A DNA stretch of 64,000 nt from Candidatus Uhrbacteria bacterium (GTDB lineage Bacteria > Patescibacteriota > Patescibacteriia > UBA9934 > GWF2-40-263): NCBI GenBank assembly GCA_023246355.1, contig JAHFIQ010000001.1, forward strand, positions 145,887 through 209,886, written 5' to 3'. Both the position numbers and the translations under genes were made by a program. Every line of letters starts with the position of its first letter. Within the stretch, counting starts at the first letter, position 1. The notes beneath the pieces were generated by a model. That model made no database searches, was not told the DNA's origin, and saw only the letters and a program-made list of their open reading frames with translations. Positions 38,191 through 62,280 of the stretch are shown piece by piece.

Positions 38191-38212
38191 GAATCCTCTT
38201 TCCGGGGGAAAG

Positions 38213-38318
38213 TTCCAACCCAGATCTCTAGCGTCTTGGTTTCAAAACGACGGGGATCCTTGTTGAAGATTGAATATCCCCGTCCGTCTCAAGCGTTGGG
38301 CGAGACGGACGGGGGTCG
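38213..38318 (-). repeat. ~110-bp intergenic tandem-hairpin repeat, copy R1
   Basis: About 95% identical to 38739..38854. Read on the minus strand, it holds CCGTCCGTCTC-N11-GAGACGGACGG and GACGGGGAT-N18-ATCCCCGTC hairpins, then GTTTTGAAACC, then AGATCTGGGTTGGAA abutting the next gene's RBS. Confidence 0.8.
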
Positions 38319-38330
38319 CGTGGCGAGTGC

Positions 38331-38522
38331 CTACTCGCGGAAGACGGCCTGGGGCATGGTGCCCGTGCCTTCGCACTGACCGCCGCCGAAAGACGGTTCG
38401 TGAGCGGCCATGACGTAGTTGAAGGCCTCTCCTTCGTCGAGGTCGAGATCGTCCTCTTCCGAATCGCTGTGGGACGGACGTACTCTGTGCGACTCCTGAC
38501 AAGTACAACAGGCTCCGAGCAT
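38331..38522 (-). CDS. Small acidic Cys-containing hypothetical protein (63 aa)
   Basis: An AGGAG lies 7 nt upstream of the ATG. The ORF sits inside the GC-rich island, and frame choice is uncertain in high-GC DNA. Confidence 0.3.
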   Translation of the reverse strand: MLGACCTCQESHRVRPSHSDSEEDDLDLDEGEAFNYVMAAHEPSFGGGQCEGTGTMPQAVFRE

Positions 38523-38578
38523 GAGATCTCCTAGCTGAACGGAAGTGTGGTGGGTGCGAGTGTCGTCTTCTTAGGCCT

Positions 38579-38718
38579 CTACTGGAAAGCCCAGCCGAAG
38601 TGACGAACGATCAAGCACAGGAGAAGCGTGATCACCCCTGCGGCGAAACCTTGAAAAAATCCGTTGCGGAACCAGCCGCCAGCGAACACGCCAAGCGCGA
38701 TGCCGAGAATGAGATACA
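38579..38718 (-). CDS. Small 46-aa hydrophobic membrane peptide
   Basis: Hand translation gives MYLILGIALGVFAGGWFRNGFFQGFAAGVITLLLCLIVRHFGWAFQ. It is below the track cutoff. Confidence 0.3.
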
Positions 38719-38738
38719 TCTGAATTTCCTTTCTGGAG

Positions 38739-38854
38739 GAAAGAAATTTTCCAACCCAGATCTCTAGCGTCTTGGTTTCAAAACGACGGGGATCCTTGTT
38801 GAAGATTGAATATCCCCATCCGTCTCAAGCGTTGAGCGAGACGGACGGGGGTCG
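38739..38854 (-). repeat. Tandem-hairpin intergenic repeat, copy R2
   Basis: ttttccaacccagatctctagcgtcttggtttcaaaacgacggggatccttgttgaagattgaatatcccc[a/g]tccgtctcaagcgttg[a/g]gcgagacggacgggggtcg is near-identical to R1. Confidence 0.8.
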
Positions 38855-38875
38855 AGGCGGTCGTGGACCGCGAGA

Positions 38876-39184
38876 TCAGTCGCCTCGTGCGAAAGGGACG
38901 GTCGGGACGATGTTGGGTCGCCTCAGCTCCTTCCAGATTCCGGGAGCCAGCACGCCGTAGAGGTAGGAGCCGACCGCACAGACGAAGGTTCCGACGCCCG
39001 CGAGCCATGCCATCTGCCACTCACCGTTGACGATGCAACGGGCCCCAAGGACGAGGAGTCCCAGCGAGATGGCGGCCATGAACAGCGTTGCAACGGCACT
39101 GATGAACAGAAGCAAGATCATGAGCACGAACCTCACGAGCCGTCCGGCCTTGTATCCGATCATCCTGTAAGAGGCTCCGGGCAT
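38876..39184 (-). CDS. Hypothetical membrane protein (~102 aa)
   Basis: The start is trimmed to MPGASYRM, which is preceded by ACGGAGGG. There are three hydrophobic helices. Confidence 0.4.
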   Translation of the reverse strand: MPGASYRMIGYKAGRLVRFVLMILLLFISAVATLFMAAISLGLLVLGARCIVNGEWQMAWLAGVGTFVCAVGSYLYGVLAPGIWKELRRPNIVPTVPFARGD

Positions 39185-39206
39185 GTGCCCTCCGTTTGGT
39201 GAGAAA

Positions 39207-39237
39207 TGTTCCAACCCAGATCCCTGGAGTCGTCTTG
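39207..39237 (-). repeat. Partial third copy (R3) of the island repeat (conserved RBS-proximal end only)
   Basis: gttccaacccagatccctggagtcgtcttg matches the 5' 30 nt of R1/R2. It lies immediately upstream of the 38876 gene's RBS. Confidence 0.6.
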
Positions 39238-50699: not shown

Positions 50700-50741
50700 A
50701 AAACGATAAATGAAAACGTCCGGGTCTCCCAGACCGGACGT
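50700..50741 (-). terminator. Terminator of GC-rich cassette A
   Basis: On the minus strand, ACGTCCGGTCTGGGAGACCCGGACGT (an 11-bp stem) is followed by TTTCATTTATCGTTTT. Confidence 0.55.
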
Positions 50742-50794
50742 GAAGGAAGAAGGTTGAGGCTCAACGAAGGTTGAACTATGAGGACTAAGTGTCG

Positions 50795-51505
50795 CTACTT
50801 CCGGCGAAGACGCAGGGCCCCGTAACCCGGGTCGGCGCTGTCAGAGCTCCCGCTGAGGTGGATCTCCACCTGACCCCTCCACACCCCGAGGTAGGCACAG
50901 CGCACGCGGCGGGCACGGTTCACCGTCCTGGGGAGATCGATGACGTGCTCGTTCTCCACCACGATCGTTGGGTGATGGGCGTAGGCGAAGACGCCTTCGA
51001 GGGCCGTACCGGCCAGGACGTCGCCGACGAGCTCGCCTCGGCAGTGGTCAGGACGGCGACCGCGGTTCTTGCGTCCGTCGTCGTGGCGGAACCAGAACGG
51101 CTCGGTGGGGAGCGGGAAGCGGTAGTCGAAGGGCTTGACTGAGTCCTCGGCGTAGCCAAACTCCTGAAACTGAATGCCCAGCATCTTGCAGGAGCGCAGC
51201 AGTCCCGGTCGCGGGTCGCACAGGGAAAGGAGCGGCAGCTCGGAGTCCTCGGCGACCAACCCTTCCGGAATCTTGGGGATCCCGGCCAGGTACGCCTTGA
51301 AGTTCTTGGCGCCGACCCTCGGATCACGGCCGAAGCCACGATCCCAAAACCGCTTGGCCATGGCCACACGCGGGTCGGTCATCTTGCCGGCGACTCCGCC
51401 GGAGGTGATCTGACGAATGAAGGACTGGAACTCGTCGTGGAGACCCGGTCCATTCTCGTCGAGCTCCAAGAAGTGCCGGAGCTGTTTGGTATTGATGTGT
51501 CCCAT
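50795..51505 (-). CDS. Hypothetical protein A of GC-rich cassette family (236 aa)
   Basis: About 65% GC against a ~50% background. GGAGG lies 6 nt upstream of the ATG. The C-terminal 180 aa are ~75% identical to the 56711..57418 product (PFWFRHDDGRKN...CRGELVGDVLAGTALEGVFAYA.HPTIVVENEH.IDLPRTV...LRLRRK). No known domain was recognised. Confidence 0.5.
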   Translation of the reverse strand: MGHINTKQLRHFLELDENGPGLHDEFQSFIRQITSGGVAGKMTDPRVAMAKRFWDRGFGRDPRVGAKNFKAYLAGIPKIPEGLVAEDSELPLLSLCDPRPGLLRSCKMLGIQFQEFGYAEDSVKPFDYRFPLPTEPFWFRHDDGRKNRGRRPDHCRGELVGDVLAGTALEGVFAYAHHPTIVVENEHVIDLPRTVNRARRVRCAYLGVWRGQVEIHLSGSSDSADPGYGALRLRRK

Positions 51506-51586
51506 TCTATCCTCCGTCCAAGGTCATCCATCGTGGCACCAAAAGGCGGCACGATCGGTTAGACTCTGGGCAGAATGCACGGTGCC

Positions 51587-51680
51587 GCCGTGCCGGTGTG
51601 TGTGCAAAACCGGAGGATTCCGGCTCTGCAAACGACTGGAGAATATACACCCGTTTGGCGGAAAAGTCAAGAATTCGATA
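51587..51680. promoter_or_regulatory. Conserved ~95-bp promoter/leader element, copy 1 (minus-strand promoter TTGACT-17-TATATT at 51642..51670)
   Basis: About 92% identical to 60933..61027 and partially to 57495..57522. On the minus strand it drives a ~125-nt structured leader. On the plus strand it ends 10 nt before the trpS ATG with TTGGCG-18-TATACT. Confidence 0.6.
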
Positions 51681-51693
51681 TACTGCGCCCTGT

Positions 51694-52686
51694 ATGAGCC
51701 GCATCCTCACCGCCCTCCAGCCTTCCGGCATCCTCCACATCGGCAACTACTTTGGCGCCATTGAGCCCATGGTAAGTCTTCAGTCTGCAGGAAATCAAAA
51801 TCTCTTGTTCATGGTCGACTACCATGCGATCACCGTAGAGCAGGATCCACACACGCTTCGACAAAACATCTTATTTGCGGCTGCGACCTATCTCGCCTCT
51901 GGCATTGATCCTGAAAAGACCATCCTCTTTCAACAGTCACGTGTTTCTGAACATACAGAACTGGCTTGGATTTTGAATTGCTTGGTACGGATGGGCGAGC
52001 TGGAGCGGATGACCCAATACAAAGATAAAGCGCTTGGCAAAGGTCAATCTGTTTCGGTCGGGCTATTCGACTACCCTGTCCTCATGGCCGCGGACATTTT
52101 GCTGTATGACACGAATATCGTGCCTGTGGGGGAAGATCAAAAACAGCATGTGGAACTCGCGCGCGACCTGGCTGAACGCTTCAACAAAAAATTTGGAGAA
52201 ACGTTTGTCGTACCCAAACCGCAGATCCGCAAAGAAGGCGCACGTCTCATGGCGCTCGATGATCCACACAAAAAAATGTCAAAGTCAGCCACGAGTGAAA
52301 AAAACTACCTCTCCCTCATGGACGATGAAAAAACCGTTTTGAAAAAAATCAAAGCAGCGGTCACAGATTCAGAAGGGACGATCCGTCTGAGTCCGTCCCG
52401 ACCAGGGATCGGGAATCTCATCACCATTCTGTCCCTCATCACAAAAAAAACGCCCAAAGAAATCGAAAACGCCTACGAAGGAAAAGGCTATGGCGATTTC
52501 AAAACGGACCTTGCACGCGAGCTTACCGCGTTTCTGACACCCCTCCAGTCAAAGATCAACGCCTTGCTCAAAGATCCCTCTGGGCTCCTGAAGATTCTAG
52601 ACAACGGCGCCTCACGTGCCAAAGCCATGGCAGAAAAAAAGATGATCGACGTCCGTCAAAAAATCGGCGTGACGCTCTCGTCATAA
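51694..52686 (+). CDS. trpS: Tryptophan--tRNA ligase
   Basis: The start is trimmed to MSRILTALQPSGILHIGNYFGA, which holds the HIGH-class motif. KMSKS is present, as is GEDQKQHVELARDLAERFN. Confidence 0.85.
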   Translation: MSRILTALQPSGILHIGNYFGAIEPMVSLQSAGNQNLLFMVDYHAITVEQDPHTLRQNILFAAATYLASGIDPEKTILFQQSRVSEHTELAWILNCLVRMGELERMTQYKDKALGKGQSVSVGLFDYPVLMAADILLYDTNIVPVGEDQKQHVELARDLAERFNKKFGETFVVPKPQIRKEGARLMALDDPHKKMSKSATSEKNYLSLMDDEKTVLKKIKAAVTDSEGTIRLSPSRPGIGNLITILSLITKKTPKEIENAYEGKGYGDFKTDLARELTAFLTPLQSKINALLKDPSGLLKILDNGASRAKAMAEKKMIDVRQKIGVTLSS

Positions 52687-52711
52687 ACCAGCCAACCGGC
52701 TGGTGTTTCGA

Positions 52712-52745
52712 TGCCAAATCAAAACGCCCCTTGAGTGAGGCGGTT
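52712..52745 (-). terminator. Terminator hairpin shared as a repeat (copy 1), downstream of vapC
   Basis: On the minus strand, CCGCCTCACTCAAGGGGCG is followed by TTTTGATTTGG. The 30-nt core aatcaaaacgccccttgagtgagg recurs at 53445..53478. Confidence 0.55.
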
Positions 52746-53148
52746 ACATGCCTAAGAGTTCAAGAAATTCGGATGGATCTGTTATCCGAGTGCCTTTCCA
52801 TTTCTTCAGTGGAAGCAGATGCTTTTTATCGCCTGTCACAAGAACATCAGCATCCGTCGCCTCAGCACAAGCCAGGATCTGATTATCAGCCTTACACGCT
52901 TTAATCTTCTTTGGAATCGTTGTAGGAGTCACGATGGTAGCTTGTTGACGCAGCAATTCCTGAACTCTGTATCTTTGCGATGCAGGCCATTGAAATTTTT
53001 TCTTAAGTACCTCGTCAACTTCTTCCAAAATAAACGGTGAAAGAATGAGTTCCAGTTCAAACACACGAATAAGGTCCAAAACTTTTTGTGGTGTTCCCCC
53101 AAACATCAATGCGGAGATAATCACATTCGTATCCAGGACAACTCGCAT
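52744..53148 (-). CDS. vapC: PIN-domain ribonuclease toxin (VapC-like)
   Basis: RVVLDTNVIISAL holds the first acidic residue, and the LVTGDKKHL region is present. The protein is 134 aa and lies directly downstream of a small RHH/antitoxin-like ORF. Confidence 0.7.
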   Translation of the reverse strand: MRVVLDTNVIISALMFGGTPQKVLDLIRVFELELILSPFILEEVDEVLKKKFQWPASQRYRVQELLRQQATIVTPTTIPKKIKACKADNQILACAEATDADVLVTGDKKHLLPLKKWKGTRITDPSEFLELLGM

Positions 53149-53150
53149 AC

Positions 53151-53387
53151 CTACGATGTACGCACTTCGTCAATAAGACGTTCAACATCCTGGCTCTTTA
53201 ATCCCAATCGCTGAGATTGTCGTTGACCAAACTGATACAGCTCGCGCCACTGTTGTTCTGTTAAATAAAATTGGAACGCCTTGCGTAGGAGCTCAGATCG
53301 AGTGAGTGACTCGCGCTTGGCTTGTGAGGTAATTTTTCTCACAAACGTTTGAGGAAGAGAAATCGTCGTAGGAATCGTTAGGCGCAT
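53151..53387 (-). CDS. Antitoxin-like small protein (VapB/RHH-type)
   Basis: 78 aa, 2 nt upstream of vapC. TISLPQTFVRKITSQAKRESLTRSELLRKAF resembles the ribbon-helix-helix N-terminus. Confidence 0.5.
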   Translation of the reverse strand: MRLTIPTTISLPQTFVRKITSQAKRESLTRSELLRKAFQFYLTEQQWRELYQFGQRQSQRLGLKSQDVERLIDEVRTS

Positions 53388-53444
53388 AAAGTTGAGTATT
53401 ACTTAATCACACTCAGATGATATCGGTGGCAGACAACATCGTCA

Positions 53445-53478
53445 ACAAATCAAAACGCCCCTTGAGTGAGGGGCGGCG
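53445..53478 (-). terminator. Repeat copy 2 of the same terminator, downstream of the Zn-ribbon gene
   Basis: The minus strand reads CGCCGCCCCTCACTCAAGGGGCGTTTTGATTTG. Confidence 0.55.
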
Positions 53479-53479
53479 T

Positions 53480-54664
53480 CTAGAGAGCAGTTGTTGAGAA
53501 GTCGAGCCCGGTGGCAATCGAGTACATCGCCTTGTGCGATGAACCAACGGGATACTGGTGGAACTCGCTCTCGCTCTTGGGTTCATGGTCGAATGTCTTG
53601 GTTCCTTTCTCGTCCACCAACACGACCTTGTAGGTAGCCGCGCGACCAGACTCGCGCTCCTTTTCGCCCGCACCGACTCGGCAGTTGAGACAGAGCTCCT
53701 CGCTATCGGGCCAGGATGTTTCGGTGGTTGTTCCTTGGTGAGGAACCTGGCGTTCAGGCTTCCAACGCCAGACGCTCCAGGAGTAGTAGTCCTCGTAGCG
53801 CGGATCATCGCGGTAGACGGGAACGTCCCTGGTTCGTGGGTCATCGCGATACTTGGTCGTACATTTCTCACCCCCACCTGTGCACACCTCATCGCCACCT
53901 GTACAGGTCGCCGTGCCATTGTCGTTGGGGGTGCAGGTCCGCTGGGTCGTGTGACAACTCCGCTCAACGGCCACGCAGTTTTCACCGTCTTCAACTTGCA
54001 CGGTGTAGTGCTCGACCTCGTTGTGATCGAACACCTTGACGGTGTGATGCACGCGGCTTCCCAGATCTTTGACGTTCTGTGCATCCGACGGACGCGATTC
54101 GTCAAACCCTTCCTCAGCGACCTGCTTGTAACGCTCGACGCTGACGGTCTGTGTCCAAGCAACACTCGTGACCGTGACATCAACCGGCCGCTTGGTAAAC
54201 AGGGCCCAGAGAAGTCCTCCACACAGGGCAGCGACCACCAGAGCGCAGCCGATGAACCTGTAGACCAAGTTGTCACGAGAGGGCGCGGGAGGATCCCCGT
54301 AGCGAGCCCACTGGGAAATCGGTGGTCGATCATCATATTCTGAGCCTGCTTGCTGCCCTCGTCCTGAAACTCGCTCAGCCTGTTCTTCACTCCTGGCGCC
54401 TGCACAGTTGCGGCAAGCGCCATCGGCATTGCGCTGGGTTCCGCCGCAGTACTCACAGGACCAGTTGGGACCATCTTGCGCCTGGCGAAGCTCAGCAGCA
54501 TCCGTGATCCGCCTTTCGTGAGACACGTCCCCTGGCATGTACCAGGGAGCCGACGTGGTGTCATGCGTTGCGCCGCAGGAAGGACAGTTGTCCTTCAGCC
54601 CTCCAATTCCCTTGGTTGAACACCTGGGACAATCCCAGAGCATTTCGATTTGGTCTGTTGGCAT
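53480..54664 (-). CDS. Double zinc-ribbon membrane protein with Cys-rich extracytoplasmic domain (GC-rich island)
   Basis: CPRC...CPSC and CEYC...CRNC form N-terminal ribbons. TM segment FIGCALVVAALCGGLLWALF. C-terminal CTPNDNGTATCTGGDEVCTGGGEKCT. The overlapping 383-aa ORF in another frame is a GC artefact. Confidence 0.5.
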   Translation of the reverse strand: MPTDQIEMLWDCPRCSTKGIGGLKDNCPSCGATHDTTSAPWYMPGDVSHERRITDAAELRQAQDGPNWSCEYCGGTQRNADGACRNCAGARSEEQAERVSGRGQQAGSEYDDRPPISQWARYGDPPAPSRDNLVYRFIGCALVVAALCGGLLWALFTKRPVDVTVTSVAWTQTVSVERYKQVAEEGFDESRPSDAQNVKDLGSRVHHTVKVFDHNEVEHYTVQVEDGENCVAVERSCHTTQRTCTPNDNGTATCTGGDEVCTGGGEKCTTKYRDDPRTRDVPVYRDDPRYEDYYSWSVWRWKPERQVPHQGTTTETSWPDSEELCLNCRVGAGEKERESGRAATYKVVLVDEKGTKTFDHEPKSESEFHQYPVGSSHKAMYSIATGLDFSTTAL

Positions 54665-55256
54665 TCTTGCTCCAGGCCATATCTTCTACACGCTTTTTCA
54701 ATTCCTGTCAACCAAAAACACCCGCGCGGGGCGAGTGTCTGTGGTGTCCAAGGATCTGTCTGTAAGCCGAATTTTGTCTTCCCTGATTGCTCAGAGGAGA
54801 TGGCAATCTATCTAGGCCTGATGTTGCCACCAGGCTCAAGCGAACGACCAAATTTGTTCTTTCACCAGAACCCGCCGCCGCGAGAGGCTTTGGCGGGCGT
54901 GGAGGGTTTGCCACAATCCATGTCACCATGGAGCGAGAAGCGTAGCTGATTGCTCAACACCACTTCACTTTTCACCTTTCACTCCGACGGACGTCGGAGC
55001 TAGTATTGTCTCTGTGGTACTTTCCCTAGGCTTTGATTCAGGAATCATGGAACAGATTTCTCCAATTCCGCGAGCCCCAATTCTTATACCTGGTCGCCGT
55101 TAGCGACTCTCTTTGTTGTCATACCTTGCGGCACAACAGGTGTTCGGACTTTCCTCATGTTCTTTCAAACACGTAGCCATCCGACAGTCCTTGGACCCAC
55201 AAAAGATACCAGAACGTCTAGTCGATGTCAAGCCATTTTGATAGACTACAGCAAGT

Positions 55257-56669
55257 ATGAAACGATCCGAACTTGCTTTTACACTGGCGCTTGTCCCGTT
55301 TGATTTCTTCGCGCTGACGGCTGCTGCCACGGCAGCGTTCTTCGCGCGTTATCATCCAGCCTTCACACAAATCCGTCCGGTCATTTTTGATTTGAACCTC
55401 GACAGCTATTTCACAGTCGTCACACCCATTACGCTTCTGTTCATCCTCATTTTTGCTATCACGGGTCTGTACAGCACAAGACGTTCCTCGGTGGGCCGGG
55501 AACTCTCACGTATTGCTCTTGCATGCTCGGCAGCCATGGCCTTGGTGTTTGCCATTTCCTTTTTTTCTCGTGTCCTGTTTGAATCACGTTTCATCGCGCT
55601 GGCCGCCTGGATCCTGGCAATACTGTTTGTGTGTCTCACCCGTCTCACGGTTCGCGGGCTCCAACGATCGCTTCTTCATGTTGGGATCGGAACGCATCGT
55701 GTCGTGGTGATCGGAGACACGACCGTGGCTCGAGCGCTCATGGAAGAATTCAAACACAAACGTCGTTTGGGATTTCGCCTGGTCGGACACTTCAACACCT
55801 TTAACAAAAACGTCGCCACCCATCTACGTGACATGAAGCGCCGCGATCAGTTGGATGAAATCATCTTGGCCGACCCTGAAGCCACACGCCGTGAAACCCT
55901 TGAGCTCATCGCGTTCACCGAACAAGAACATCTGGTCTTCCGCTACTCGGCCGATCTTTTCACCGCGGCTGTGGGACGCTCGATCATTCACATGTATGCC
56001 GGTGTCCCAATCATAGAAGTCCAAAAAACACCCCTGGACGGCTGGGGGGCGATTTACAAGCGACTCTTTGATGTGGCAGGCGCATCTGTTTTGATCCTCT
56101 TGAGCTCCCCGATCATGCTTGTCACGGCCATTGCCATCAAACTCGACTCACGCGGACCTGTATTTTTTTCAAAACTAGATGACGGCTCACCAGTTGAACG
56201 CATGGGGCAGGGCGGCCGACCATTTCGCTATCTCAAATTTCGCTCCATGCGACCTGGCACACACTCAATGCGCTACGAGGAGTTAGCGGCACACGACACA
56301 CGCAAAGGTTCTCCACTTGTGAAAATCAAAAATGATCCACGCATCACCCGCGTCGGATCCTTCATTCGCACATGTTCGATCGATGAGCTCCCAGAATTTT
56401 TCTTGGTGCTCACGGGTCACATGAGTCTAGTCGGTCCTCGTCCGCATCTTCCTGAAGAAGTCGATCGCTACAAACCTGAACAGCGAAAAGTCATGACCGT
56501 CAAACCCGGCATTACGGGCATGGCGCAAATCTCCGGCCGCGCGGATTTGGATTTCGATTCTGAAGTGCGACTGGACACGTACTACATTGAACACTGGAGT
56601 CCTTGGCTTGATTTGTACATCTTATTGAGGACCCCGTTGGTGGTCCTGTTGGGCAGAGGGGCTTCATAG
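55257..56669 (+). CDS. Undecaprenyl-phosphate sugar phosphotransferase (second copy; WbaP/WcaJ-like)
   Basis: N-terminal TM helices. KRLFDVAGASVLILLSSPIMLVTAIAIKLDSRGPVFF...RYLKFRSM...DELPEFFLVLTGHMSLVGPRPHLP...KPGITGMAQI. Confidence 0.8.
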   Translation: MKRSELAFTLALVPFDFFALTAAATAAFFARYHPAFTQIRPVIFDLNLDSYFTVVTPITLLFILIFAITGLYSTRRSSVGRELSRIALACSAAMALVFAISFFSRVLFESRFIALAAWILAILFVCLTRLTVRGLQRSLLHVGIGTHRVVVIGDTTVARALMEEFKHKRRLGFRLVGHFNTFNKNVATHLRDMKRRDQLDEIILADPEATRRETLELIAFTEQEHLVFRYSADLFTAAVGRSIIHMYAGVPIIEVQKTPLDGWGAIYKRLFDVAGASVLILLSSPIMLVTAIAIKLDSRGPVFFSKLDDGSPVERMGQGGRPFRYLKFRSMRPGTHSMRYEELAAHDTRKGSPLVKIKNDPRITRVGSFIRTCSIDELPEFFLVLTGHMSLVGPRPHLPEEVDRYKPEQRKVMTVKPGITGMAQISGRADLDFDSEVRLDTYYIEHWSPWLDLYILLRTPLVVLLGRGAS

Positions 56670-56671
56670 AA

Positions 56672-56705
56672 AAAGAAAAGCGGCCACCATTACTGGGGCC
56701 GCCGT
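56672..56705. terminator. Bidirectional terminator between sugar transferase and cassette B
   Basis: GCGGCCACCATTACTGGGGCCGCCGTTTTTTTC. Confidence 0.55.
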
Positions 56706-56710
56706 TTTTT

Positions 56711-57418
56711 TCACTTCCGGCGAAGACGCAGGGTCCCGCAACCCGGGCTGGCGATGTCAGATTCCCTGTAGAGACTGATCCTCACCTGACCCCTCCACAC
56801 CTCGAGGAAGGCACAGTTCATGCGGCTGTCACGGAGCACCGTCCTGGGGAGGTCGATGGAGTGCTCGTTCTCCACCACGATCGTTGGGTGAAGGGCGTAG
56901 GCGAAGACGCCTTCGAGAGCCGTACCGGCCAGGACGTCGCCGACCAGTTCGTCCCGGCAGTCGTCGGGACGGCGCTTGTGGTTCTTGCGTCCGTCGTCGT
57001 GGCGGAACCAGAAGGGCTCGGCGGGGAGCGGGAAGTTCTGGTTGAAGGGCTCGGCCGATTCCTCACTGAAGCCCAGCTCCTCGAACTGGATGCCAAGCAT
57101 CTTGCAGGAGCGCAGCAATCCCGGCCGCGGGTCGGCAAGGGAGACGAACTCCAACTCGTCATCAACAACGAGGGAGCCGGGAACCTCTGGGATACCTTCC
57201 CAGTAGGCTCTGAAGTTCTTCGACTGCACGTTTGGATCACGGCCGAAGCCCAGAGTCCACAGAGACAGAGCCTGCATCACCCGCAGGCTCACGGGATCTG
57301 CCTCCAGGCCGCGAATGAACTCGTCTACTTGTTCCCCAATCCCGGAAAGGCTCACTCGCCTTCGGGCATCCTGAATCCGAGCCAACTTGACCAAATGCTC
57401 TGCATCAAACAGTGACAT
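56711..57418 (-). CDS. Hypothetical protein B of GC-rich cassette family (paralog of 50795..51505)
   Basis: 235 aa and GC-rich. It has the same C-terminal block and the same final LRLRRK as protein A. Confidence 0.5.
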   Translation of the reverse strand: MSLFDAEHLVKLARIQDARRRVSLSGIGEQVDEFIRGLEADPVSLRVMQALSLWTLGFGRDPNVQSKNFRAYWEGIPEVPGSLVVDDELEFVSLADPRPGLLRSCKMLGIQFEELGFSEESAEPFNQNFPLPAEPFWFRHDDGRKNHKRRPDDCRDELVGDVLAGTALEGVFAYALHPTIVVENEHSIDLPRTVLRDSRMNCAFLEVWRGQVRISLYRESDIASPGCGTLRLRRK

Positions 57419-57485
57419 GACATTCTCCTATCGGACTTTGATGAGGCCAAGGGGCCTCGCACCACGTGCCGAGAACGGGGGGTGG

Positions 57486-57522
57486 AGTATCGTCCCGTTT
57501 GGCGGAAAAGTCAAGAATTGAT
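57486..57522. promoter_or_regulatory. Conserved promoter element, copy 2 (minus: TTGACT-17-GATACT; abuts GT4 start on plus)
   Basis: cgtttggcggaaaagtcaagaattgata matches copy 1, including the gaatt(c)gata tail, and sits 14 nt before the ATG at 57537. Confidence 0.5.
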
Positions 57523-57536
57523 AGGATGCCGGGGCT

Positions 57537-58646
57537 ATGAAACTGGCACTGGTTCACGACTACTTGATCCAAAACGGTGGGGCAGAAAAAGTGTTGGAAG
57601 TCTTTGGTTCTCTGTGGCCGGACTCCCCCATCTACACGCTCCTGTTTGACCCAGAGCGGCTCCCGACCTTCCAAGGCCGGGATATTCGTACATCGTTTCT
57701 TGAACGACTTCCCTTTGGCCGTCAAAAATATCAGTGGTACTTGCCTCTCATGCCCACCGCCACCGAACACTACGACCTCTCTGACTTTGATGTTGTCCTC
57801 TCATCAACGAGTGCCTTTGCCAAAGGGGTGATCACCCGAGACGACGCTCTTCACATTTGTTATTGTCATACCCCGACGCGATATCTTTGGAGCGACACGC
57901 ACAGCTACGTGGACGAACTGCGTGTTCCGGGATTTGTAAAAATGCTGTTGCCCCCAGTGCTCTCACGCCTTCGACTCTGGGACAAGACGGCCGCTGATCG
58001 TGTGGATGTGTTCGTGGCGAATTCCAAAACCGTCCAAAGCCGCATTCAAAAATATTACCGCCGTGATGCACAGGTCATTCATCCTCCGGTTGATACACAT
58101 CGTTTTCAAATTGCCCCAACCTCTGCCATATCCACCTCCCCCTACTTTCTCACCGGCGGCCGCTTGGTTGCCTACAAACGCTACGACCTGGTCATCCAAG
58201 CTGCCAACCGGACAAAGCTGCCACTGAAAGTTTTCGGCACAGGTCCGATTGAGGATGATCTGAAAAAAATGGCTGGATCTCACATCGAGTTTCTTGGCCG
58301 TGTCTCACAGGAAGAACAAGCACGGCTGTACCAGGGAGCGCTCGCGTTTATCCATCCTCAAGAAGAGGACTTCGGGATTACACCTGTGGAATCCATGGCC
58401 AGCGGTCGTCCGGTCATCGCGTACAAAAAAGGCGGTGCGACCGAAACCGTTGTCGAAGGACTCTCTGGAGAATTTTTTCAAGAACAAATTTGGGAGGAAG
58501 TCGCCGACCTCATGCTGCGTTTTGACGAACGTCGCTACGATCCTCAGGCCATCAAAGCGCACGCTGAACAGTTTTCAAAAGAACGTTTTGAACGCGAGAT
58601 GAAATCGTTTGTTGAATCGCAATGGGAGGCTCATCGCCGCGTATGA
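57537..58646 (+). CDS. GT4 family glycosyltransferase
   Basis: N-terminus MKLALVHDYLIQNGGAEKVLEV. C-terminus QEEDFGITPVESMASGRPVIAYKKGGATETV. Confidence 0.8.
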   Translation: MKLALVHDYLIQNGGAEKVLEVFGSLWPDSPIYTLLFDPERLPTFQGRDIRTSFLERLPFGRQKYQWYLPLMPTATEHYDLSDFDVVLSSTSAFAKGVITRDDALHICYCHTPTRYLWSDTHSYVDELRVPGFVKMLLPPVLSRLRLWDKTAADRVDVFVANSKTVQSRIQKYYRRDAQVIHPPVDTHRFQIAPTSAISTSPYFLTGGRLVAYKRYDLVIQAANRTKLPLKVFGTGPIEDDLKKMAGSHIEFLGRVSQEEQARLYQGALAFIHPQEEDFGITPVESMASGRPVIAYKKGGATETVVEGLSGEFFQEQIWEEVADLMLRFDERRYDPQAIKAHAEQFSKERFEREMKSFVESQWEAHRRV

Positions 58647-59758
58647 GAATCCTGGTCGACATCAGACACTTGGCGAACCCTCATCTCTCGGGCGTAGGAC
58701 AGTACACCGTGCAGCTTCTGCGTGCGCTTTTTGACATTGACCATGAGAATGAATACGTTTTGTTTTCAAGCGGTAGAGTGAAGCCGGATCTTTCAACCTT
58801 TCACCTCTCCACCCCAAACAAAATCTTGAATCTTCGAACCCTTTTGTTTGCCCATCCCACCATCAACTGGCATATCCACGAACCCATTGATCTCATTTTT
58901 CTTCCCAACCTCAACATCACCACTCTGCCTTCTGACATTCCCACAGTCCTCACCGTGCACGACCTCTCGTGGAAACTCTATCCAGAATTTTATTCGCTGA
59001 AAATGCGTGCGTGGCACAAGGCGACTCGAGCTCATGAATTGATTGAACGAAGCCGTGCAATCATCACACCCTCTCTTTGCACAAAGCAGGACGTAAACAG
59101 ATTGTTCAACGTGGACTCTGAACGAACGCATGTGATCCCTCACGGTGTCTCAGAAGAGTTCACACCAAAAATGCAGGCTCAAGATCACGGCGTGCGCTCA
59201 CGTCTCAAACTTCCAAAACATTTTGCGCTGTTCGTCGGAACGATTGAACCACGAAAAAATCTGATCGCCCTTGTGGAAGGCGTAAAAGACTATCGAGAAC
59301 GAACTCGCGACGATCTCCATCTCGTCTTGGCTGGAGGTTGGGGTTGGAAATCGCACGACCTGCGACGACGACTCTGGAAACGCGATACGCAGGGCTGGGT
59401 GCACCAGATGGGCTATGTGAACCCCCACGATCTCCCTGCGCTCTACCGTTCAGCTTCTGTCACGGTCTGGCCGTCTATCTACGAAGGCTTTGGCTTGCCG
59501 ATTTTGGAATCCATGGCCTCAGGCACGCCGGTGATCACCTCCCACACGTCCTCCATGCCAGAGGTCGCGGGCATGGCTGCCATAACGATCGATCCCTACA
59601 ACAGCCGCGACATGGCTGACGCCCTGAAAGGACTGCTTGGTTCCTCTGCTCTGCAGGCACAACTCGTATCCAGCGGACTCGATCGCGCCAAAACGTTCAC
59701 CTGGCACAAGGCAGCACAAGAAACACTCGACGTGTTCCGTCATTCCTGTGATGGATAG
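58643..59758 (+). CDS. GT4 family glycosyltransferase
   Basis: The start is trimmed to MRILVDIRHL, giving an ATGA overlap. The C-terminus reads YEGFGLPILESMASGTPVITSHTSSMPEVAG. Confidence 0.75.
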   Translation: MRILVDIRHLANPHLSGVGQYTVQLLRALFDIDHENEYVLFSSGRVKPDLSTFHLSTPNKILNLRTLLFAHPTINWHIHEPIDLIFLPNLNITTLPSDIPTVLTVHDLSWKLYPEFYSLKMRAWHKATRAHELIERSRAIITPSLCTKQDVNRLFNVDSERTHVIPHGVSEEFTPKMQAQDHGVRSRLKLPKHFALFVGTIEPRKNLIALVEGVKDYRERTRDDLHLVLAGGWGWKSHDLRRRLWKRDTQGWVHQMGYVNPHDLPALYRSASVTVWPSIYEGFGLPILESMASGTPVITSHTSSMPEVAGMAAITIDPYNSRDMADALKGLLGSSALQAQLVSSGLDRAKTFTWHKAAQETLDVFRHSCDG

Positions 59759-59934
59759 TTATTGATACTCATCAATAGTAAAGCATCTGTCGTAACCGGA
59801 AACCTCGACAGTGTTCCAACAGTCCTAAGTACGACGGCATGTTCTCGAGAGTAAGTCTCTTGAACATCCGTTGTTTTGTTTTGTGAGCAAAAAGAAAAGG
59901 ATCCAAGGTTCCAAGAACCAAGGATCCAAGCGTC

Positions 59935-60858
59935 TTAGAGAACGCCGAGGAGGCGGAACCCGACGTCGTCGCCGGGACCGCGCGACCAGCGCCTGCCCAC
60001 ACCCGCGAGCCCACCGTAGCCACGGTTGCCGACGAACACCCGGTGGACAGAACCGTAGGCGTTTTCCGTCCATTCCCAGGAGGCGGTGGCGCCGAGATCC
60101 TGGAACTGCGTCCCATGGAGACGATTGAGCTCGAGCAGGATGTTGCCGAAGAAGTTCCACTCCTGTGCGGTCATGGGGCGCACGGCCGCCTTCTTGAGAC
60201 TCCAGAGCTGGGCCGTCTGCGGACACAGGGTGGCCCGCAGGTGATCCCACGAGATCTTGAAGCGAGTCTGGAGGCCGAGCTCGAAAGCGAGCCGGTCGTT
60301 ACCACCGCCGTAGCCCTTCGGATCGTTCCAATCGGGCTTGCGAACGAGCTCGATCACGACCCAGCGCCCCGGCAGCGGATGATGCGTGATCTGGCTCTCG
60401 TCGATATGGCGACCCCAGTCGGGAGCGATCCAGCCATCCGGACGGGTCGCAGAAGTGAGCGCGGTCGGAAGGAAGATCGGAATCAGATTCCCATCGTCGA
60501 TCCAGCCGCGGGTCCTGGCACTCATGTGCTTCTTCAAGGGCGGCAGTGAGGCACTGACCTTGGGGAACTTCAGCGCGTAGAACTCGCTCCAGAAGGCCTG
60601 CGGATCACTCGCGATCCGACGCAGGAGCGCCGCGGTCGCGTCGATGTTCGGCGGCTGTTCCGACTCGGCCTTGGGTGCGAGCCTGGCCTTCACCCAGGCG
60701 TCGAGCTCAGTGGGGTCGATCAGGTGACGAGCGAGAGCTTCACCTAGCGGCATGGTGACCGCATGGGCGCCCAAAAGGCCGTTCAGGCCGTCCGGGGTGA
60801 GGTGCTCACGCCGCTTGTTGATCTCGTCGGCCCAGCCGGGCAATGCTTCCAGAGTCAT
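59935..60858 (-). CDS. Hypothetical protein C of the GC-rich cassette set; C-terminus weakly FGE-sulfatase (SUMF1/EgtB/PvdO)-like
   Basis: The start is trimmed to MTLEALPGW, with AAGGAG 6 nt upstream. The track's 511-aa ORF extends across the promoter and is rejected. The C-terminus reads RPMTAQEWNFF...ASWEWTEN...RVFVGNRGYGG...VGFRLLG, which resembles the order RLPTEAEWEY...NVWEWT...RGGSW...GFR. Confidence 0.4.
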   Translation of the reverse strand: MTLEALPGWADEINKRREHLTPDGLNGLLGAHAVTMPLGEALARHLIDPTELDAWVKARLAPKAESEQPPNIDATAALLRRIASDPQAFWSEFYALKFPKVSASLPPLKKHMSARTRGWIDDGNLIPIFLPTALTSATRPDGWIAPDWGRHIDESQITHHPLPGRWVVIELVRKPDWNDPKGYGGGNDRLAFELGLQTRFKISWDHLRATLCPQTAQLWSLKKAAVRPMTAQEWNFFGNILLELNRLHGTQFQDLGATASWEWTENAYGSVHRVFVGNRGYGGLAGVGRRWSRGPGDDVGFRLLGVL

Positions 60859-60932
60859 GATTTCTCCTTCCCTTGCGACTTTCTTACCACCCCTTACAAA
60901 CGGGTTGATAAGTACTTGCAAAGGACGAATGC

Positions 60933-61027
60933 GCACGGTGCCGCCGTGACGGTGTGTGTGCAAAACCAGAGGATTCCGGCTGTGCAAACGACTGGAGAAT
61001 ATACTCCAGTTTGGCGGAAAAGTCAAG
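60933..61027. promoter_or_regulatory. Conserved promoter/leader element, copy 3 (minus promoter TTGACT-17-TATATT at 60998..61026)
   Basis: gcacggtgccgccgtgacggtgtgtgtgcaaaaccagaggattccggctgtgcaaacgactggagaatatactccagtttggcggaaaagtcaag matches copy 1. The hairpin CCGGA/TCYGG retains pairing. Confidence 0.6.
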
Positions 61028-61103
61028 CGGTGGACCTGTCGCACGCATTCTATTTCAACGGACAACTTCCCTGTGCATATCCTGGGATCAAACTCGGAAT
61101 TTT

Positions 61104-61119
61104 TTGCTATAATTGCCGC
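61104..61119 (+). promoter_or_regulatory. Extended -10 promoter (TGcTATAAT) immediately upstream of the GT4 start, implying a leaderless or near-leaderless mRNA
   Basis: tttttgcTATAATtgccgcATG. The -10 ends 7 nt before the ATG at 61120. Confidence 0.45.
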
Positions 61120-62280
61120 ATGAGAGTGGGAATAGATGCCAGAATGTTGGGTCCAACAGTGGGTGGAGGCGGACTTGGACGATATGTTGAACAGCTCGTG
61201 CATGAGCTTGGACAGCAGAATCAAAAGAACCGCTTTGTTTTGTTCCTGAAAGAAGCGACACAGGTGGAAAAGGGAGATGAGGGAGACAAGGTGGAAAAGG
61301 GAGATGAGGGAGACAAGGTGGAAAAGAGAATCGTACCTGTCCACTGGTACACACTCAAAGAACAGCTCGTGATGGGACGAGTCATTGATCGAGAGCATCT
61401 TGATCTCGTCCACTTCCCGCACTGGAACGTTCCCCTCTTTTTGAGAACGCCGTTTGTCGTCACGATCCATGATCTCATCTTGCTTGAAGAACCACGATCA
61501 GCCCGCGCCACGACTCGTCACCCTCTTGTCTATGCCCTCAAGTACGCCGCGTACAAAATCATCCTCAAAAACGCTCTTTCAAAATCCCGCGCCATCATCG
61601 CGGTCTCACAATATACGAAGTCTTCGATCCTCAAATTCTTTCCCGAGATTCCCGAAAGCAAAATTTTCGTGATCTACGAAGGAGTAACGAATCTGCCTAA
61701 GACCCCTCCCGACCTCCCCTTGCCAAGGGGAGTAGACACCGTCCTGTACATCGGCAACGCCTATCCACACAAAAACCTCGATGCCCTTCTGTGCGCCTTC
61801 TCGCTTTTCCTCAAGACTCACCCGGACGCCAAGCTGGTCCTTGCTGGACGCGATGACGTTTTCTACCAGCGTCTCCAAAAAGATGCAGCTCAACTGAACC
61901 TCACAGACCACATCCAGTTCATTCCAAATCCGACAGATCAAGATCTTGCAAAGCTCTACCGCAGTGCCACGCTCTTTGTCTTCCCTTCCAAATGTGAAGG
62001 CTTTGGCCTTCCACCTTTGGAAGCCATGAGCTTCAACGTTCCTGTCGTCGCATCCAACACAAGCTCTCTGCCAGAAATTTTGGGCGATGCTGCTGTCTTC
62101 TTCAATCCAAAAGACCCTCAAGACATCGCCAGGGCTATGGAGCACGTCTTTGACAATCCAGCATTACAAGAAGAGCTCAGAAAAAAAGGTCTTGAATGCA
62201 TCAAACGCTACTCCTGGAAGAACATGGCAGAGCAAGTCCTCTCAATCTACGAATCCTGTGACAAAAAAGAAGCCTCTTAA
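61120..62280 (+). CDS. GT4 family glycosyltransferase with an internal KGDEGDKVE tandem repeat
   Basis: The start is trimmed to MRVGIDARMLG. The C-terminus reads KCEGFGLPPLEAMSFNVPVVASNTSSLPEILG. A 27-bp unit recurs 2.3 times at 61263..61325. Confidence 0.75.
   Translation: MRVGIDARMLGPTVGGGGLGRYVEQLVHELGQQNQKNRFVLFLKEATQVEKGDEGDKVEKGDEGDKVEKRIVPVHWYTLKEQLVMGRVIDREHLDLVHFPHWNVPLFLRTPFVVTIHDLILLEEPRSARATTRHPLVYALKYAAYKIILKNALSKSRAIIAVSQYTKSSILKFFPEIPESKIFVIYEGVTNLPKTPPDLPLPRGVDTVLYIGNAYPHKNLDALLCAFSLFLKTHPDAKLVLAGRDDVFYQRLQKDAAQLNLTDHIQFIPNPTDQDLAKLYRSATLFVFPSKCEGFGLPPLEAMSFNVPVVASNTSSLPEILGDAAVFFNPKDPQDIARAMEHVFDNPALQEELRKKGLECIKRYSWKNMAEQVLSIYESCDKKEAS

What the first reader, a model, noticed from the sequence alone, without database searches (positions are those of the whole stretch)
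50700..61040. Three GC-rich cassettes sharing a near-identical promoter + structured leader, each inserted flush against the start codon of an unrelated gene
Cassette A spans 50795..51680, cassette B 56711..57522 and cassette C 59935..61027. They are 60-65% GC against a ~50% genome. Each has the minus-strand promoter TTGACT-17-TATATT (GATACT in B), a conserved ~90-nt leader, a strong RBS and its own terminator. A and B encode paralogous 236-aa proteins of unknown function. C encodes an unrelated 308-aa protein with a degenerate FGE-sulfatase-like C-terminus. In A and B the element ends 10-14 bp before the ATG of trpS and of a GT4 gene (the tail gaatt(c)gata is conserved). There it supplies a plus-strand TTGGCG-17/18-TATACT/TAGGAT outward promoter. 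A portable promoter module, compositional foreignness and insertion at gene starts together suggest a mobile or horizontally spread regulatory/defence-toxin cassette family.
Basis: seen in the sequence. Interest (0 to 1): 0.8.

Follow-up and report, generated by a model that had tools for sequence, protein, structure and literature searches.

The report
Orphaned DGR variable-protein genes, shared leader
The three GC-rich "cassettes" are target genes of a diversity-generating retroelement (a reverse-transcriptase system that rewrites the tip of a binding protein) in a Candidatus Uhrbacteria genome. This strain has lost the retroelement next to them, and they share a lineage-specific promoter and folded RNA leader that matches no described RNA family.

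Summary
Three minus-strand genes, A (50795-51505), B (56711-57418) and C (59935-60858), have GC3 of 0.77-0.83 against a window median of 0.53. All three carry the promoter TTGACTTTTCCGCCAAA, which occurs only three times in 64 kb. A and C also share a 95-nt block at 95% identity. B keeps only the promoter.

The interpretation as a mobile defence or toxin cassette is not supported. A/B and C are two families of C-type-lectin-fold variable proteins of diversity-generating retroelements (DGRs).

- In related Uhrbacteria contigs, the same genes with the same leader are followed by a template repeat (TR), Avd and a reverse transcriptase (RT). TR and variable repeat (VR) differ almost only at TR adenines.
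- A sibling-strain contig, 99.9% identical to the window and encoding the identical C protein, still has TR-Avd-RT downstream of C.
- The window keeps only the last ~36 codons of that RT (59772-59882).
- No TR exists anywhere in the window.

Three points are new or unexplained:
- a structured leader with compensatory base changes and a predicted Shine-Dalgarno-occluding hairpin, without an Rfam match;
- extreme whole-gene GC3 in the targets but not in their own Avd or RT;
- a G-run that puts the RT genes of relatives one base out of frame.

The parts
50795..51505 (-). Gene A: 236-aa DGR variable protein (A/B family), with an N-terminal helical part and a C-type-lectin-fold domain
50798..50914 (-). 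Variable repeat (VR) of A, the last ~117 nt before the stop codon
   Evidence: Against the TR of L004, 18 of 30 TR-adenine sites differ but only 11 of 87 other sites. Across 7 family members, hypervariable columns are enriched at TR-A sites (Fisher p = 3e-5). Hypervariable columns are visible in alignment A3.
50718..50734 (-). Hairpin plus T-run about 60 nt downstream of A's stop. The same element follows the VR in L004 and L012.
   Evidence: Terminator-like site. Homologous hairpins are seen in the L004 and L012 spacers.
51506..51574 (-). A-family-specific part of the 5' leader: a long hairpin (P3) whose 3' arm covers part of the GGAGG Shine-Dalgarno sequence
   Evidence: RNA fold of the 148-nt leader: -61.1 kcal/mol, z = -3.6. 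G-C to A-U changes keep the inner stem in L004 (read).
51575..51638 (-). Conserved leader core: P1 hairpin with extended stem, plus invariant P2 hairpin CACGG-N5-CCGUG
   Evidence: Covariance model R1 scores 92.3 bits. Three P1 pairs show changes on both sides and 94% of cells are paired, against 27-39% when the partners are slid. RNAalifold gives the same structure. There is no Rfam match.
51642..51670 (-). Promoter of A: TTGACT-17-TATATT with the conserved spacer TTTCCGCCAAAC
51655..51684 (+). Divergent promoter of trpS (TTGGCG-18-TATACT). Its -35 is the complement of the conserved spacer of A's promoter. The trpS ATG is at 51694, 9 nt after the -10.
56711..57418 (-). Gene B: 235-aa paralogue of A (63% identity). 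The VR is roughly 56714-56830.
   Evidence: VR mismatches to the L004 TR: 14 of 30 A sites against 14 of 87 other sites. At the same site (GT4/Bac_transf), relative L029 has target-TR-Avd-RT.
57419..57485 (-). Shortened, diverged leader of B. P1 is missing and only a CGGCACG fragment of the P2 region is recognisable.
   Evidence: alignment. R1 finds no match. The fold is not better than shuffles, z = -0.7.
57486..57514 (-). Promoter of B: TTGACT-17-GATACT with the same spacer
59935..60858 (-). Gene C: 307-aa DGR variable protein of a second family, with a C-terminal FGE/C-type-lectin-like domain
59941..60067 (-). Variable repeat of C
   Evidence: It is identical to L023:10792-10918, which differs from the TR at L023:11212-11338 at 22 positions. 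Eighteen of these are TR adenines and the other 4 lie at the edges of the scanned stretch.
59899..59927 (-). Hairpin plus T-run directly after C's stop, conserved in L010, L023 and L028
59881..59886 (.). Deletion junction. Sibling contig L023 continues here with a TGCTACAAT promoter-like box, a ~250-nt spacer, TR, Avd and RT. The window jumps into the 3' end of the RT gene.
   Evidence: The blastn match between L023 and the window is 99.93% identical up to 59881. Sequence comparison.
59772..59882 (-). Remnant of the DGR reverse-transcriptase gene: the last ~36 codons and the stop
   Evidence: tblastn gives 70% identity over 30 aa to the C-terminus of the L004 RT, E = 7e-8. The same remnant is in independent assemblies L022 and L024-L027.
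60859..60930 (-). C-family-specific part of the leader: a hairpin in which UUCGUCCUUUGC pairs with GCAAGGGAAGG, covering part of the Shine-Dalgarno sequence
   Evidence: Fold -49.9 kcal/mol, z = -2.1. The inner stem keeps pairing in L006 through a U-A to C-G change (read).
60931..60994 (-). Conserved leader core of C (P1 and P2)
   Evidence: R1 scores 86.5 bits. The block is 95% identical to A's over 95 nt (D4).
60998..61026 (-). Promoter of C: TTGACT-17-TATATT. Homology to A and B starts exactly at the -35.

Best explanation
A, B and C are variable-protein (target) genes of diversity-generating retroelements in a Candidatus Uhrbacteria (Patescibacteria/CPR) genome.

Shown:
- Each gene encodes a C-type-lectin-fold protein whose last ~120 nt is a variable repeat.
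- In relatives, and in a sibling strain, a template repeat about 300 nt downstream, an Avd gene and a reverse transcriptase accompany the same genes. TR and VR differ almost only at TR adenines.
- The RT module next to C has been deleted in this strain, leaving the RT 3' end. A and B have no TR or RT next to them, and the window holds no TR.

Inferred:
- In the intact form, the TR RNA is reverse-transcribed with adenine-specific misincorporation and the cDNA replaces the VR (mutagenic retrohoming).
- In this strain the three VRs are therefore frozen, unless a DGR elsewhere in the genome acts on A and B in trans.

All members of both families in this clade are expressed from a conserved sigma-70-type promoter followed by a ~130-nt leader.
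- Shown: a 5'-terminal extended hairpin P1 with compensatory changes, an invariant hairpin P2, and a family-specific hairpin P3.
- Predicted: P3 covers part of the Shine-Dalgarno sequence.
- Inferred: the leader acts at the RNA level to set translation or stability of all variable proteins together, probably by binding a factor at the invariant P1/P2 nucleotides.

Within the window genome the leader copies are kept alike by gene conversion. The whole-gene GC3 excess is a conserved trait of these targets. Its cause is not established; GC-biased gene conversion among the mosaic paralogues is my preferred guess.
For: DGR identity:
- L004 has A-type target, TR, bAvd and RT.
- L010, L023 and L028 have C-type target, TR, Avd and RT.
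- L012 and L029 have A-like target, TR, Avd and RT. The two share one TR but have different VRs at TR-A sites.
- L030 is a distant member (44% identical) that also carries a DGR.
- VR-only polymorphism is seen in near-identical proteins of relatives: P0016 and P0350 differ at 13 positions, all in the VR, and the P0067 cluster behaves likewise.
- Both proteins have C-type-lectin folds.
- A and B VRs differ from a heterologous TR preferentially at A sites.

Loss in this strain:
- The RT remnant is at 59772-59882.
- L023 is 99.9% identical, with an identical C gene, and still carries the intact module.
- There is no TR in the window.
- No RT on the 414-kb contig appears among the 120 best RT hits.
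- A and C each show a single protein sequence, in 7 and 11 contigs, and each is the only member of its 90% cluster.

Leader:
- Twelve distinct copies lie upstream of three or more gene families.
- Covariation is seen.
- Model R1 hits only these sites.
- The P2 region is still recognisable in the distant L030.

Composition.

Mosaic paralogues.
Against: - No TR, Avd or complete RT is in the window, so DGR membership of A and B rests on orthologues and on the substitution pattern against a TR of another species.
- A fourth A/B paralogue (P0006) lies elsewhere on the same 414-kb contig and its surroundings could not be read. A frameshifted RT there would have escaped, so 'frozen' is not proven for A and B.
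- The leader function is inferred from structure only. P2 never varies, so it carries no covariation evidence. Only 3 pairs covary among 11 related sequences. The invariant stretches could equally be DNA-level protein sites.
- Concerted evolution of the leaders is clear only in the window genome: 95% within the genome against 87-91% to orthologues. It is ambiguous in L006.
- The GC3 pattern (C3 > G3 > T3 > A3) is that of any high-GC genome and does not point to a specific cause.
Confidence: 0.85

Rival explanations
1. A and B are still being diversified in trans. A DGR with an A-type TR elsewhere in this genome, for example next to the fourth paralogue P0006, retrohomes into the VRs of A and B, so only C is orphaned.
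For: - In the relative that carries L004, a B-type gene elsewhere in the genome (P0349/P0016/P0350) varies only in its VR. Its invariant VR residues match the peptide encoded by the L004 TR, which fits one TR serving two targets.
- A and B keep identical 3' VR ends (CTGCGTCTTCGCCGGAAG), and A keeps the downstream hairpin.
- B and P0006 are identical over 59 residues including the first half of the VR. They then differ at 8 variable positions in the last 22 residues, as partial homing from the 3' end would produce.
Against: - No RT with contig length 414,343 is among the best 120 RT hits.
- A has one sequence in 7 contigs. B has two sequences that differ by one residue outside the VR.
- The surroundings of P0006 could not be retrieved.
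Confidence: 0.25
2. One reading: a mobile, horizontally spread cassette family (promoter, leader and a defence or toxin gene) that inserts at gene starts and brings an outward promoter.
For: - The composition differs sharply from the neighbours.
- The shared module has sharp boundaries.
- The same intergenic site holds different families in different genomes: the trpS/RNase J gap has A here and C-type in L006 and L028. The site next to rpiB holds an A-type DGR in L004.
- C carries an unused outward -35.
- The C 3' region is 87% identical in nucleotides to L028, whereas RNase J is 79% and the stretch that includes uvrA is 74% identical.
Against: - No integrase, transposase or flanking repeats are present.
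- There are no defence, toxin or phage family hits and nothing in viral contigs.
- B-type occupies the same site in L006, L007 and L029.
- The genes are DGR targets.
- The element is confined to a narrow Uhrbacteria clade: 3 species representatives in GTDB and 4 true metagenome hits.
- GC-richness is conserved in diverged orthologues.
Confidence: 0.08
3. The conserved upstream block is a DNA-level operator or promoter for a transcription factor and has no RNA function. The hairpins are incidental, or are inverted repeats bound by a dimeric protein.
For: - There are long invariant stretches (AGTCGTTTGC, TTTGCA, CACCGGCACGGCGG) and an invariant P2.
- The promoter spacer is conserved.
- CTGGAG-TATATT-CTCCAG forms a palindrome around the -10 of C.
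Against: - Three P1 pairs change on both sides while keeping pairing. Pairing collapses when the partners are slid.
- In L008 a 78-nt insertion sits in the P1 loop, as in a variable-length RNA hairpin.
- Family-specific P3 hairpins pair with the Shine-Dalgarno sequence in both A and C.
- Part of the spacer conservation is explained by the overlapping -35 of the divergent neighbour promoter.
Confidence: 0.2
4. The GC-rich composition reflects import of the target genes from a high-GC donor.
For: GC3 is 0.77-0.90 with a codon usage typical of high-GC genomes. Avd and RT of the same elements are not GC-rich.
Against: - All 47 close homologues of A and all 23 of C that carry a name are from Uhrbacteria or Patescibacteria.
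- The trait persists across orthologues down to 44% identity, in genomes named as 51% and 59% GC, so amelioration should have erased an old import.
- GC3 is uniform along the genes.
Confidence: 0.1

Closest known systems
DGRs of Patescibacteria/CPR (clade 2 of Roux et al. 2021, PMC8144416; Paul et al. 2017 Nat Microbiol, cited from my own knowledge)
   Same: - Cellular DGRs with RT, Avd, TR and a C-terminal VR in short proteins that lack recognisable domains or transmembrane segments. PMC8144416 describes CPR targets in exactly this way.
- Adenine-specific TR/VR mismatches.
- Groundwater origin.
   Different: - In the window the retroelement part is gone and only targets plus an RT stub remain.
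- The targets share a dedicated promoter and structured leader, and have extreme GC3. I did not find these features described.
DGR variable proteins TvpA (PDB 2Y3C), Mtd (1YU0) and TaqVP (5VF4)
   Different: - Sequence identity is 7-18% and no Pfam FGE-sulfatase hit is found.
- The N-terminal helical domains are unrelated.
- There is no signal peptide, lipobox or phage-tail context.
Remote or orphan DGR targets (one TR serving several VRs, as reported for Legionella, Treponema and CPR DGRs; from my own knowledge, and mentioned in PMC8144416)
   Same: VR-bearing genes lie far from any RT. The relative with L004 seems to serve an adjacent A-type and a remote B-type target with one TR.
   Different: For C, the loss of the cognate TR-RT is directly documented as a within-population deletion polymorphism.
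Shine-Dalgarno-sequestering cis-regulatory leaders (riboswitches, ribosomal-protein leaders, RNA thermometers) and 5'-terminal stabiliser hairpins
   Same: A conserved structured domain at the 5' end is followed by a hairpin that pairs with the ribosome-binding site.
   Different: There is no match to any of 4,227 Rfam families. No ligand or protein partner is known and the distribution is very narrow.
Integron gene cassettes
   Same: Unrelated ORFs share a common flanking module.
   Different: There is no attC, no integrase and no array. The shared module is a promoter and leader upstream of the gene, not a recombination site downstream.

Membership tests
Diversity-generating retroelement (complete system) | DGR-clade reverse transcriptase gene | tested here: not met
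   Only a stub of ~36 codons lies at window 59772-59882. No other RT match is found in the window by tblastn. Complete or G-run-frameshifted RT genes lie next to the orthologous targets in L004, L010, L012, L028, L029 and L030, and an RT 5' part cut by the contig end lies in L023.
Diversity-generating retroelement (complete system) | TR/VR pair whose differences fall at TR adenines | tested here: not met
   No TR is found anywhere in the 64 kb. The feature is met outside the window. The VR of C is identical to that of L023, whose TR differs at 22 positions, 18 of them adenines. The same pattern holds in L004, L010, L012, L028, L029 and L030.
Diversity-generating retroelement (complete system) | Accessory variability determinant (Avd) | tested here: not met
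   tblastn with the L004 Avd finds nothing in the window. Avd is present in all related DGR loci.
DGR variable (target) protein | C-terminal C-type-lectin-fold domain carrying the variable residues | tested here: met
DGR variable (target) protein | Hypervariable positions confined to the VR and matching TR adenines | tested here: met
   See alignments A3 and A4. Enrichment at TR-A sites has p = 3e-5. For C the test uses the cognate TR of the sibling strain. VR-only variants exist in relatives.
DGR variable (target) protein | GC-rich 3' end of the VR (IMH) and a hairpin downstream of the VR | tested here: inconclusive
   In C, the stretch GGGTTCCGCCTCCTCGGC is shared with the TR and followed by the divergent 3' end and a hairpin at 59899-59927. 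A has a hairpin at 50718-50734. B has only a terminator shared with the neighbouring gene. Function was not testable.
DGR variable (target) protein | Ongoing diversification in the population | tested here: not met
   A has one sequence in 7 contigs and C has one in 11 contigs, including the strain with the intact DGR. Each is the sole member of its 90% cluster. Read-level variation was not testable.
Anti-phage defence or toxin systems | Match to a known defence or toxin protein family | tested here: not met
   PADLOC gives 0 families, and Pfam and NCBIfam give 0 for A, B and C. The only toxin nearby is an unrelated PIN/RHH pair at 52744-53392.
Mobile element or gene cassette | Recombinase or transposase, terminal repeats, target-site duplication, empty sites | tested here: inconclusive
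   No flanking direct or inverted repeats are present. There are no viral-contig or phage matches. Site occupancy differs between genomes.
Known structured RNA family (Rfam 15) | Covariance-model match at or near the gathering score | tested here: not met
   There is no match at the gathering score in the window or in 5 related loci. The best match at E <= 10 on the leader scores 16.6 bits against a gathering score of 53, which is chance level.

The most novel reading that the evidence does not exclude
The conserved P1-P2-P3 leader is a new cis-regulatory RNA that switches translation of all DGR variable proteins of a cell in response to one signal or factor. Together with the +1 G-run in the RT genes, it would form a two-level control of when hypermutated binding proteins are made and when they are rewritten. 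The extreme GC3 of the targets would be a by-product of the frequent gene conversion that also homogenises the leaders.
Probability: 0.2. Interest if true: 0.7.

Novelty: new variant of a known kind. Interest (0 to 1): 0.5.

Why it matters
DGRs are abundant in CPR bacteria, but almost nothing is known about how their targets are expressed or how the systems decay.

- This locus gives a dated example of DGR loss. The intact and deleted alleles coexist in one groundwater population and encode an identical target protein.
- Variable-protein genes can outlive their retroelement with the reading frame, promoter and leader intact.
- Two unrelated target families are wired to one promoter and leader module, which points to coordinated control. 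The leader is a concrete candidate RNA motif for experimental work.
- The codon-usage anomaly and the G-run in the RT genes are cheap, testable leads on recombination and on control of mutagenesis.
- For annotation, it shows that short GC-rich orphan genes in CPR genomes can be recognised as DGR targets even when no RT is nearby.

Tried and rejected
- Search for a TR in the window, in two ways: 60-nt windows of each C-terminus, and an all-against-all scan allowing mismatches only at adenines. Nothing was found except an unrelated repeat at 38.2/38.7 kb.
- Pfam, NCBIfam, PADLOC and PHROGs on A, B, C and D gave no family.
- Phage tblastn with A and C gave nothing. A viral-contig scan with the leader pattern gave nothing.
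- Rfam gave nothing at the gathering score or at E <= 10.
- The leader pattern was scanned in GTDB species representatives, giving 3 loci, all Uhrbacteria/Patescibacteria. In metagenomes it gave 10 loci. Six of them were chance hits (L013, L014, L017, L018, L019, L021) and were discarded after inspection.
- I asked whether TTCCGCCAAAC is also an operator upstream of the TR. It is present in the C-type spacers (L010, L023, L028) but absent from the A-type spacers (L004, L012), so I did not pursue it.
- I asked whether A-depletion is strand-specific, as adenine mutagenesis of the whole gene would predict. Overall A and T are equally depleted, and the third-position order C > G > T > A is the ordinary high-GC pattern, so I rejected this.
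- I looked for a GC3 gradient toward the VR and found none.
- I tried to locate the fourth paralogue P0006 and the rest of the 414-kb contig. The look-up found no record.
- P1 plus the U-run as an intrinsic attenuator is unlikely. The U-run pairs within the extended P1 stem, and no alternative anti-terminator pairing is conserved.

Full report
**1. What is in the sequence**

Region 50.7-61.1 kb carries three intact minus-strand ORFs among plus-strand housekeeping and cell-envelope genes:
- A: 50795-51505, 236 aa.
- B: 56711-57418, 235 aa.
- C: 59935-60858, 307 aa.

Names given by sources to the homologues place the window in Candidatus Uhrbacteria (Patescibacteria/CPR).

The three genes have GC of 0.61-0.65 and GC3 of 0.77-0.83. 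The median GC3 of 49 window genes is 0.53. Only two other genes are outliers: D (53480-54664, GC3 0.65) and a 139-aa ORF at 37771-38190 (GC3 0.76).

All three genes are preceded by TTGACT-17-TATATT, or GATACT in B. The 17-mer TTGACTTTTCCGCCAAA occurs exactly three times in 64 kb, with 0.27 expected by chance. It is therefore not a general promoter consensus.

A and C share a 95-nt block at 95% identity (51577-51671 and 60933-61027). B shares only the 35-nt promoter part, and its leader is shortened and diverged.

Two points are not: the leader is absent from B, and C is not flush with a neighbour's start codon.

**2. What the genes are**

Pfam, NCBIfam, PADLOC and PHROGs give no hit for A, B or C. 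Homologues are few, 47 for A and 23 for C. Every one that carries a name is from Uhrbacteria or Patescibacteria. A profile search finds 332 more distant cluster representatives for the A/B family.

The decisive evidence comes from genomic context in relatives.

- **L004** (GCA_016205975.1). The A orthologue is followed by a 131-nt repeat that differs from the gene's 3' end at 25 positions. Twenty-one of these are adenines in the downstream copy. A bAvd gene and an RVT_1 gene follow. This is a classical diversity-generating retroelement.
- **L010 and L028.** These show the same architecture with C-type targets.
- **L012 and L029.** These carry an A-like target. The two contigs share one TR but have different VRs at TR-adenine positions, which is direct evidence of activity.
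- **L030.** This carries a member only 44% identical to A.
- **Near-identical proteins of relatives** differ only inside the VR. P0016 and P0350 differ at 13 positions. The P0067 cluster behaves likewise.

The VRs of A and B differ from the heterologous L004 TR at 18 and 14 of 30 adenine sites. At the 87 other sites they differ at only 11 and 14.

**3. State of the system in this strain**

The window contains no TR and no Avd. Its only RT sequence is a stub: the last ~36 codons and stop of a DGR RT at 59772-59882. The stub begins about 50 nt after C's stop.

Contig L023 comes from the same sample series and is 99.9% identical to the window from 64000 down to about 59881. It encodes the identical C protein. 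It then continues with a TGCTACAAT promoter-like box, a spacer, the TR, Avd and the RT. Its TR differs from the VR at 22 positions, 18 of them at adenines.

The deleted allele is present in the window and in five independent assemblies (L022, L024-L027). It is therefore a real polymorphism, not an assembly error.

The other two sites also hold complete DGRs in relatives:
- The RNase J/trpS gap holds a C-type DGR in L028, and a C-type gene next to trpS in L006.
- The GT4/Bac_transf gap holds a full DGR in L029.

A, B and C are therefore best described as orphaned DGR targets.

No RT on a contig of 414,343 bp, the length of the window's contig, appears among the best 120 RT hits. A and C each have a single sequence across 7 and 11 contigs.

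One caveat applies. A fourth A/B paralogue (P0006) sits elsewhere on the same contig, and its context could not be read. It is identical to B over 59 residues including the first half of the VR. It then differs at 8 variable positions in the last 22 residues. This resembles a partial retrohoming event, so an A-type DGR was active in this lineage not long ago and may still exist.

**4. The shared promoter and leader**

The same promoter and leader precede A/B-type genes, C-type genes and a third kind of ORF (L020). I found them in twelve distinct copies from at least eight related genomes or metagenomes.

The alignment of 11 cores (A2) gives these results:
- P1 is an extended 5'-terminal hairpin. 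Three of its pairs change on both sides while keeping pairing.
- 94% of cells are paired, against 27-39% when the partners are slid.
- P2 is an invariant hairpin, CACGG-N5-CCGUG.
- In L008 a 78-nt insertion sits in the P1 loop.

Downstream, each family has its own long hairpin, whose 3' arm covers part of the Shine-Dalgarno sequence. The folds are -61.1 kcal/mol (z = -3.6) for A and -49.9 kcal/mol (z = -2.1) for C.

No Rfam family matches. The covariance model finds only these sites, plus a weak hit in the distant L030, where the P2 region is still recognisable.

Part of the promoter-spacer conservation has a simple explanation. On the other strand the spacer carries the -35 (TTGGCG) of the divergent promoter of the neighbouring gene. 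That gene's ATG lies about 9 nt after its -10, so the neighbour looks leaderless or nearly so. At C this outward -35 is present but unused.

The A and C modules are closer to each other (95%) than to their orthologues (87-91%). The identity block is sharply bounded. The paralogues are mosaics. Together these indicate gene conversion within the genome.

My reading, which is inferred, is a lineage-specific regulon of DGR variable proteins. The leader would act as an RNA that sets translation or stability.

**5. Composition**

The GC3 excess has these features:
- It covers the whole gene evenly.
- It is shared by orthologues in genomes named as 51% and 59% GC, and reaches 0.90 in L030.
- It is not shared by the Avd and RT of the same elements, which have GC3 of 0.40-0.62.
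- Lys is 96% AAG in the targets against 21% in the neighbours.
- The third-position order C > G > T > A is that of ordinary high-GC genomes, so it does not indicate adenine-specific mutagenesis of the whole gene.

Recent import is unlikely. GC-biased gene conversion, translational selection or continuing cassette exchange remain open.

**6. Comparison with what is known**

DGRs are known to be enriched in CPR bacteria. Their targets are known to lack recognisable domains (PMC8144416).

What I did not find described:
- the shared structured leader;
- the composition anomaly;
- the documented within-population loss;
- the G-run in the RT genes.

Its notion of a portable promoter module is partly borne out.

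**7. Verdict**

This is a known kind of system, a CPR DGR, in an unusual state with unusual accessories. The targets are orphaned and share a candidate new regulatory leader. Interest is moderate.

Noticed in passing
L004:2413-2422, L010:6260-6269, L012:4871-4880, L029:7091-7100, L030:7084-7092, L028:1595-1605: The RT genes of this DGR clade contain a G9-G11 run inside the ORF. In five loci from four species-level lineages (L012 and L029 carry the same TR) the run is exactly one G longer than the in-frame length, so the RT is split into two ORFs. Only L028 (G11) is in frame. Full-length relatives also exist in the protein database. This could be phase variation, programmed transcriptional slippage, or a homopolymer assembly error.
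   Followed up: partly
window 53480-54664 (-): Gene D is a fourth GC-rich (GC3 0.65) minus-strand gene of 394 aa. It has N-terminal zinc-ribbon-like CxxC pairs, one hydrophobic segment and a Cys-rich C-terminal part. It has no family hit, a different promoter, and no TR/VR signature.
   Followed up: partly
window 37771-39231: A second set of small minus-strand ORFs each has a shared upstream element: 30-nt copies at 38206, 38742 and 39202, and 106 nt at 98% identity at 38213 and 38749. The 139-aa ORF 37771-38190 has GC3 0.76 and AAG/AAA 8/0, so it is another compositional outlier with no family hit.
   Followed up: no
window 54746-55192 (-): A bacterial RNase P class A RNA scores 125.8 bits. 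It lies between gene D and the Bac_transf gene.
   Followed up: no
window 52715-52740 and 53446-53471: An identical 26-nt repeat (CAAATCAAAACGCCCCTTGAGTGAGG) contains a terminator hairpin and flanks the PIN/RHH toxin-antitoxin pair (52744-53392). The TA pair may have been inserted together with a duplicated terminator.
   Followed up: no
window 51684-51694, 55230-55257, 61112-61131: Several plus-strand genes (trpS, Bac_transf, the glycosyltransferase at 61131) have a -10-like box only 6-9 nt before the ATG and no Shine-Dalgarno sequence, which suggests leaderless mRNAs. The DGR targets, by contrast, have ~130-nt leaders and strong Shine-Dalgarno sequences (by eye).
   Followed up: no
L023:10971-10979; L010 and L028 equivalents: An extended -10-like box (TGCTACAAT or TGGTACAAT) lies right after the post-VR hairpin. 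It may be the promoter of the TR RNA. The deletion in the window cuts exactly through it.
   Followed up: partly
window 61262-61315: A perfect 27-nt tandem duplication (AGGTGGAAAAGGGAGATGAGGGAGACA, two copies) lies inside the glycosyltransferase gene downstream of C and adds 9 in-frame codons (D12).
   Followed up: no
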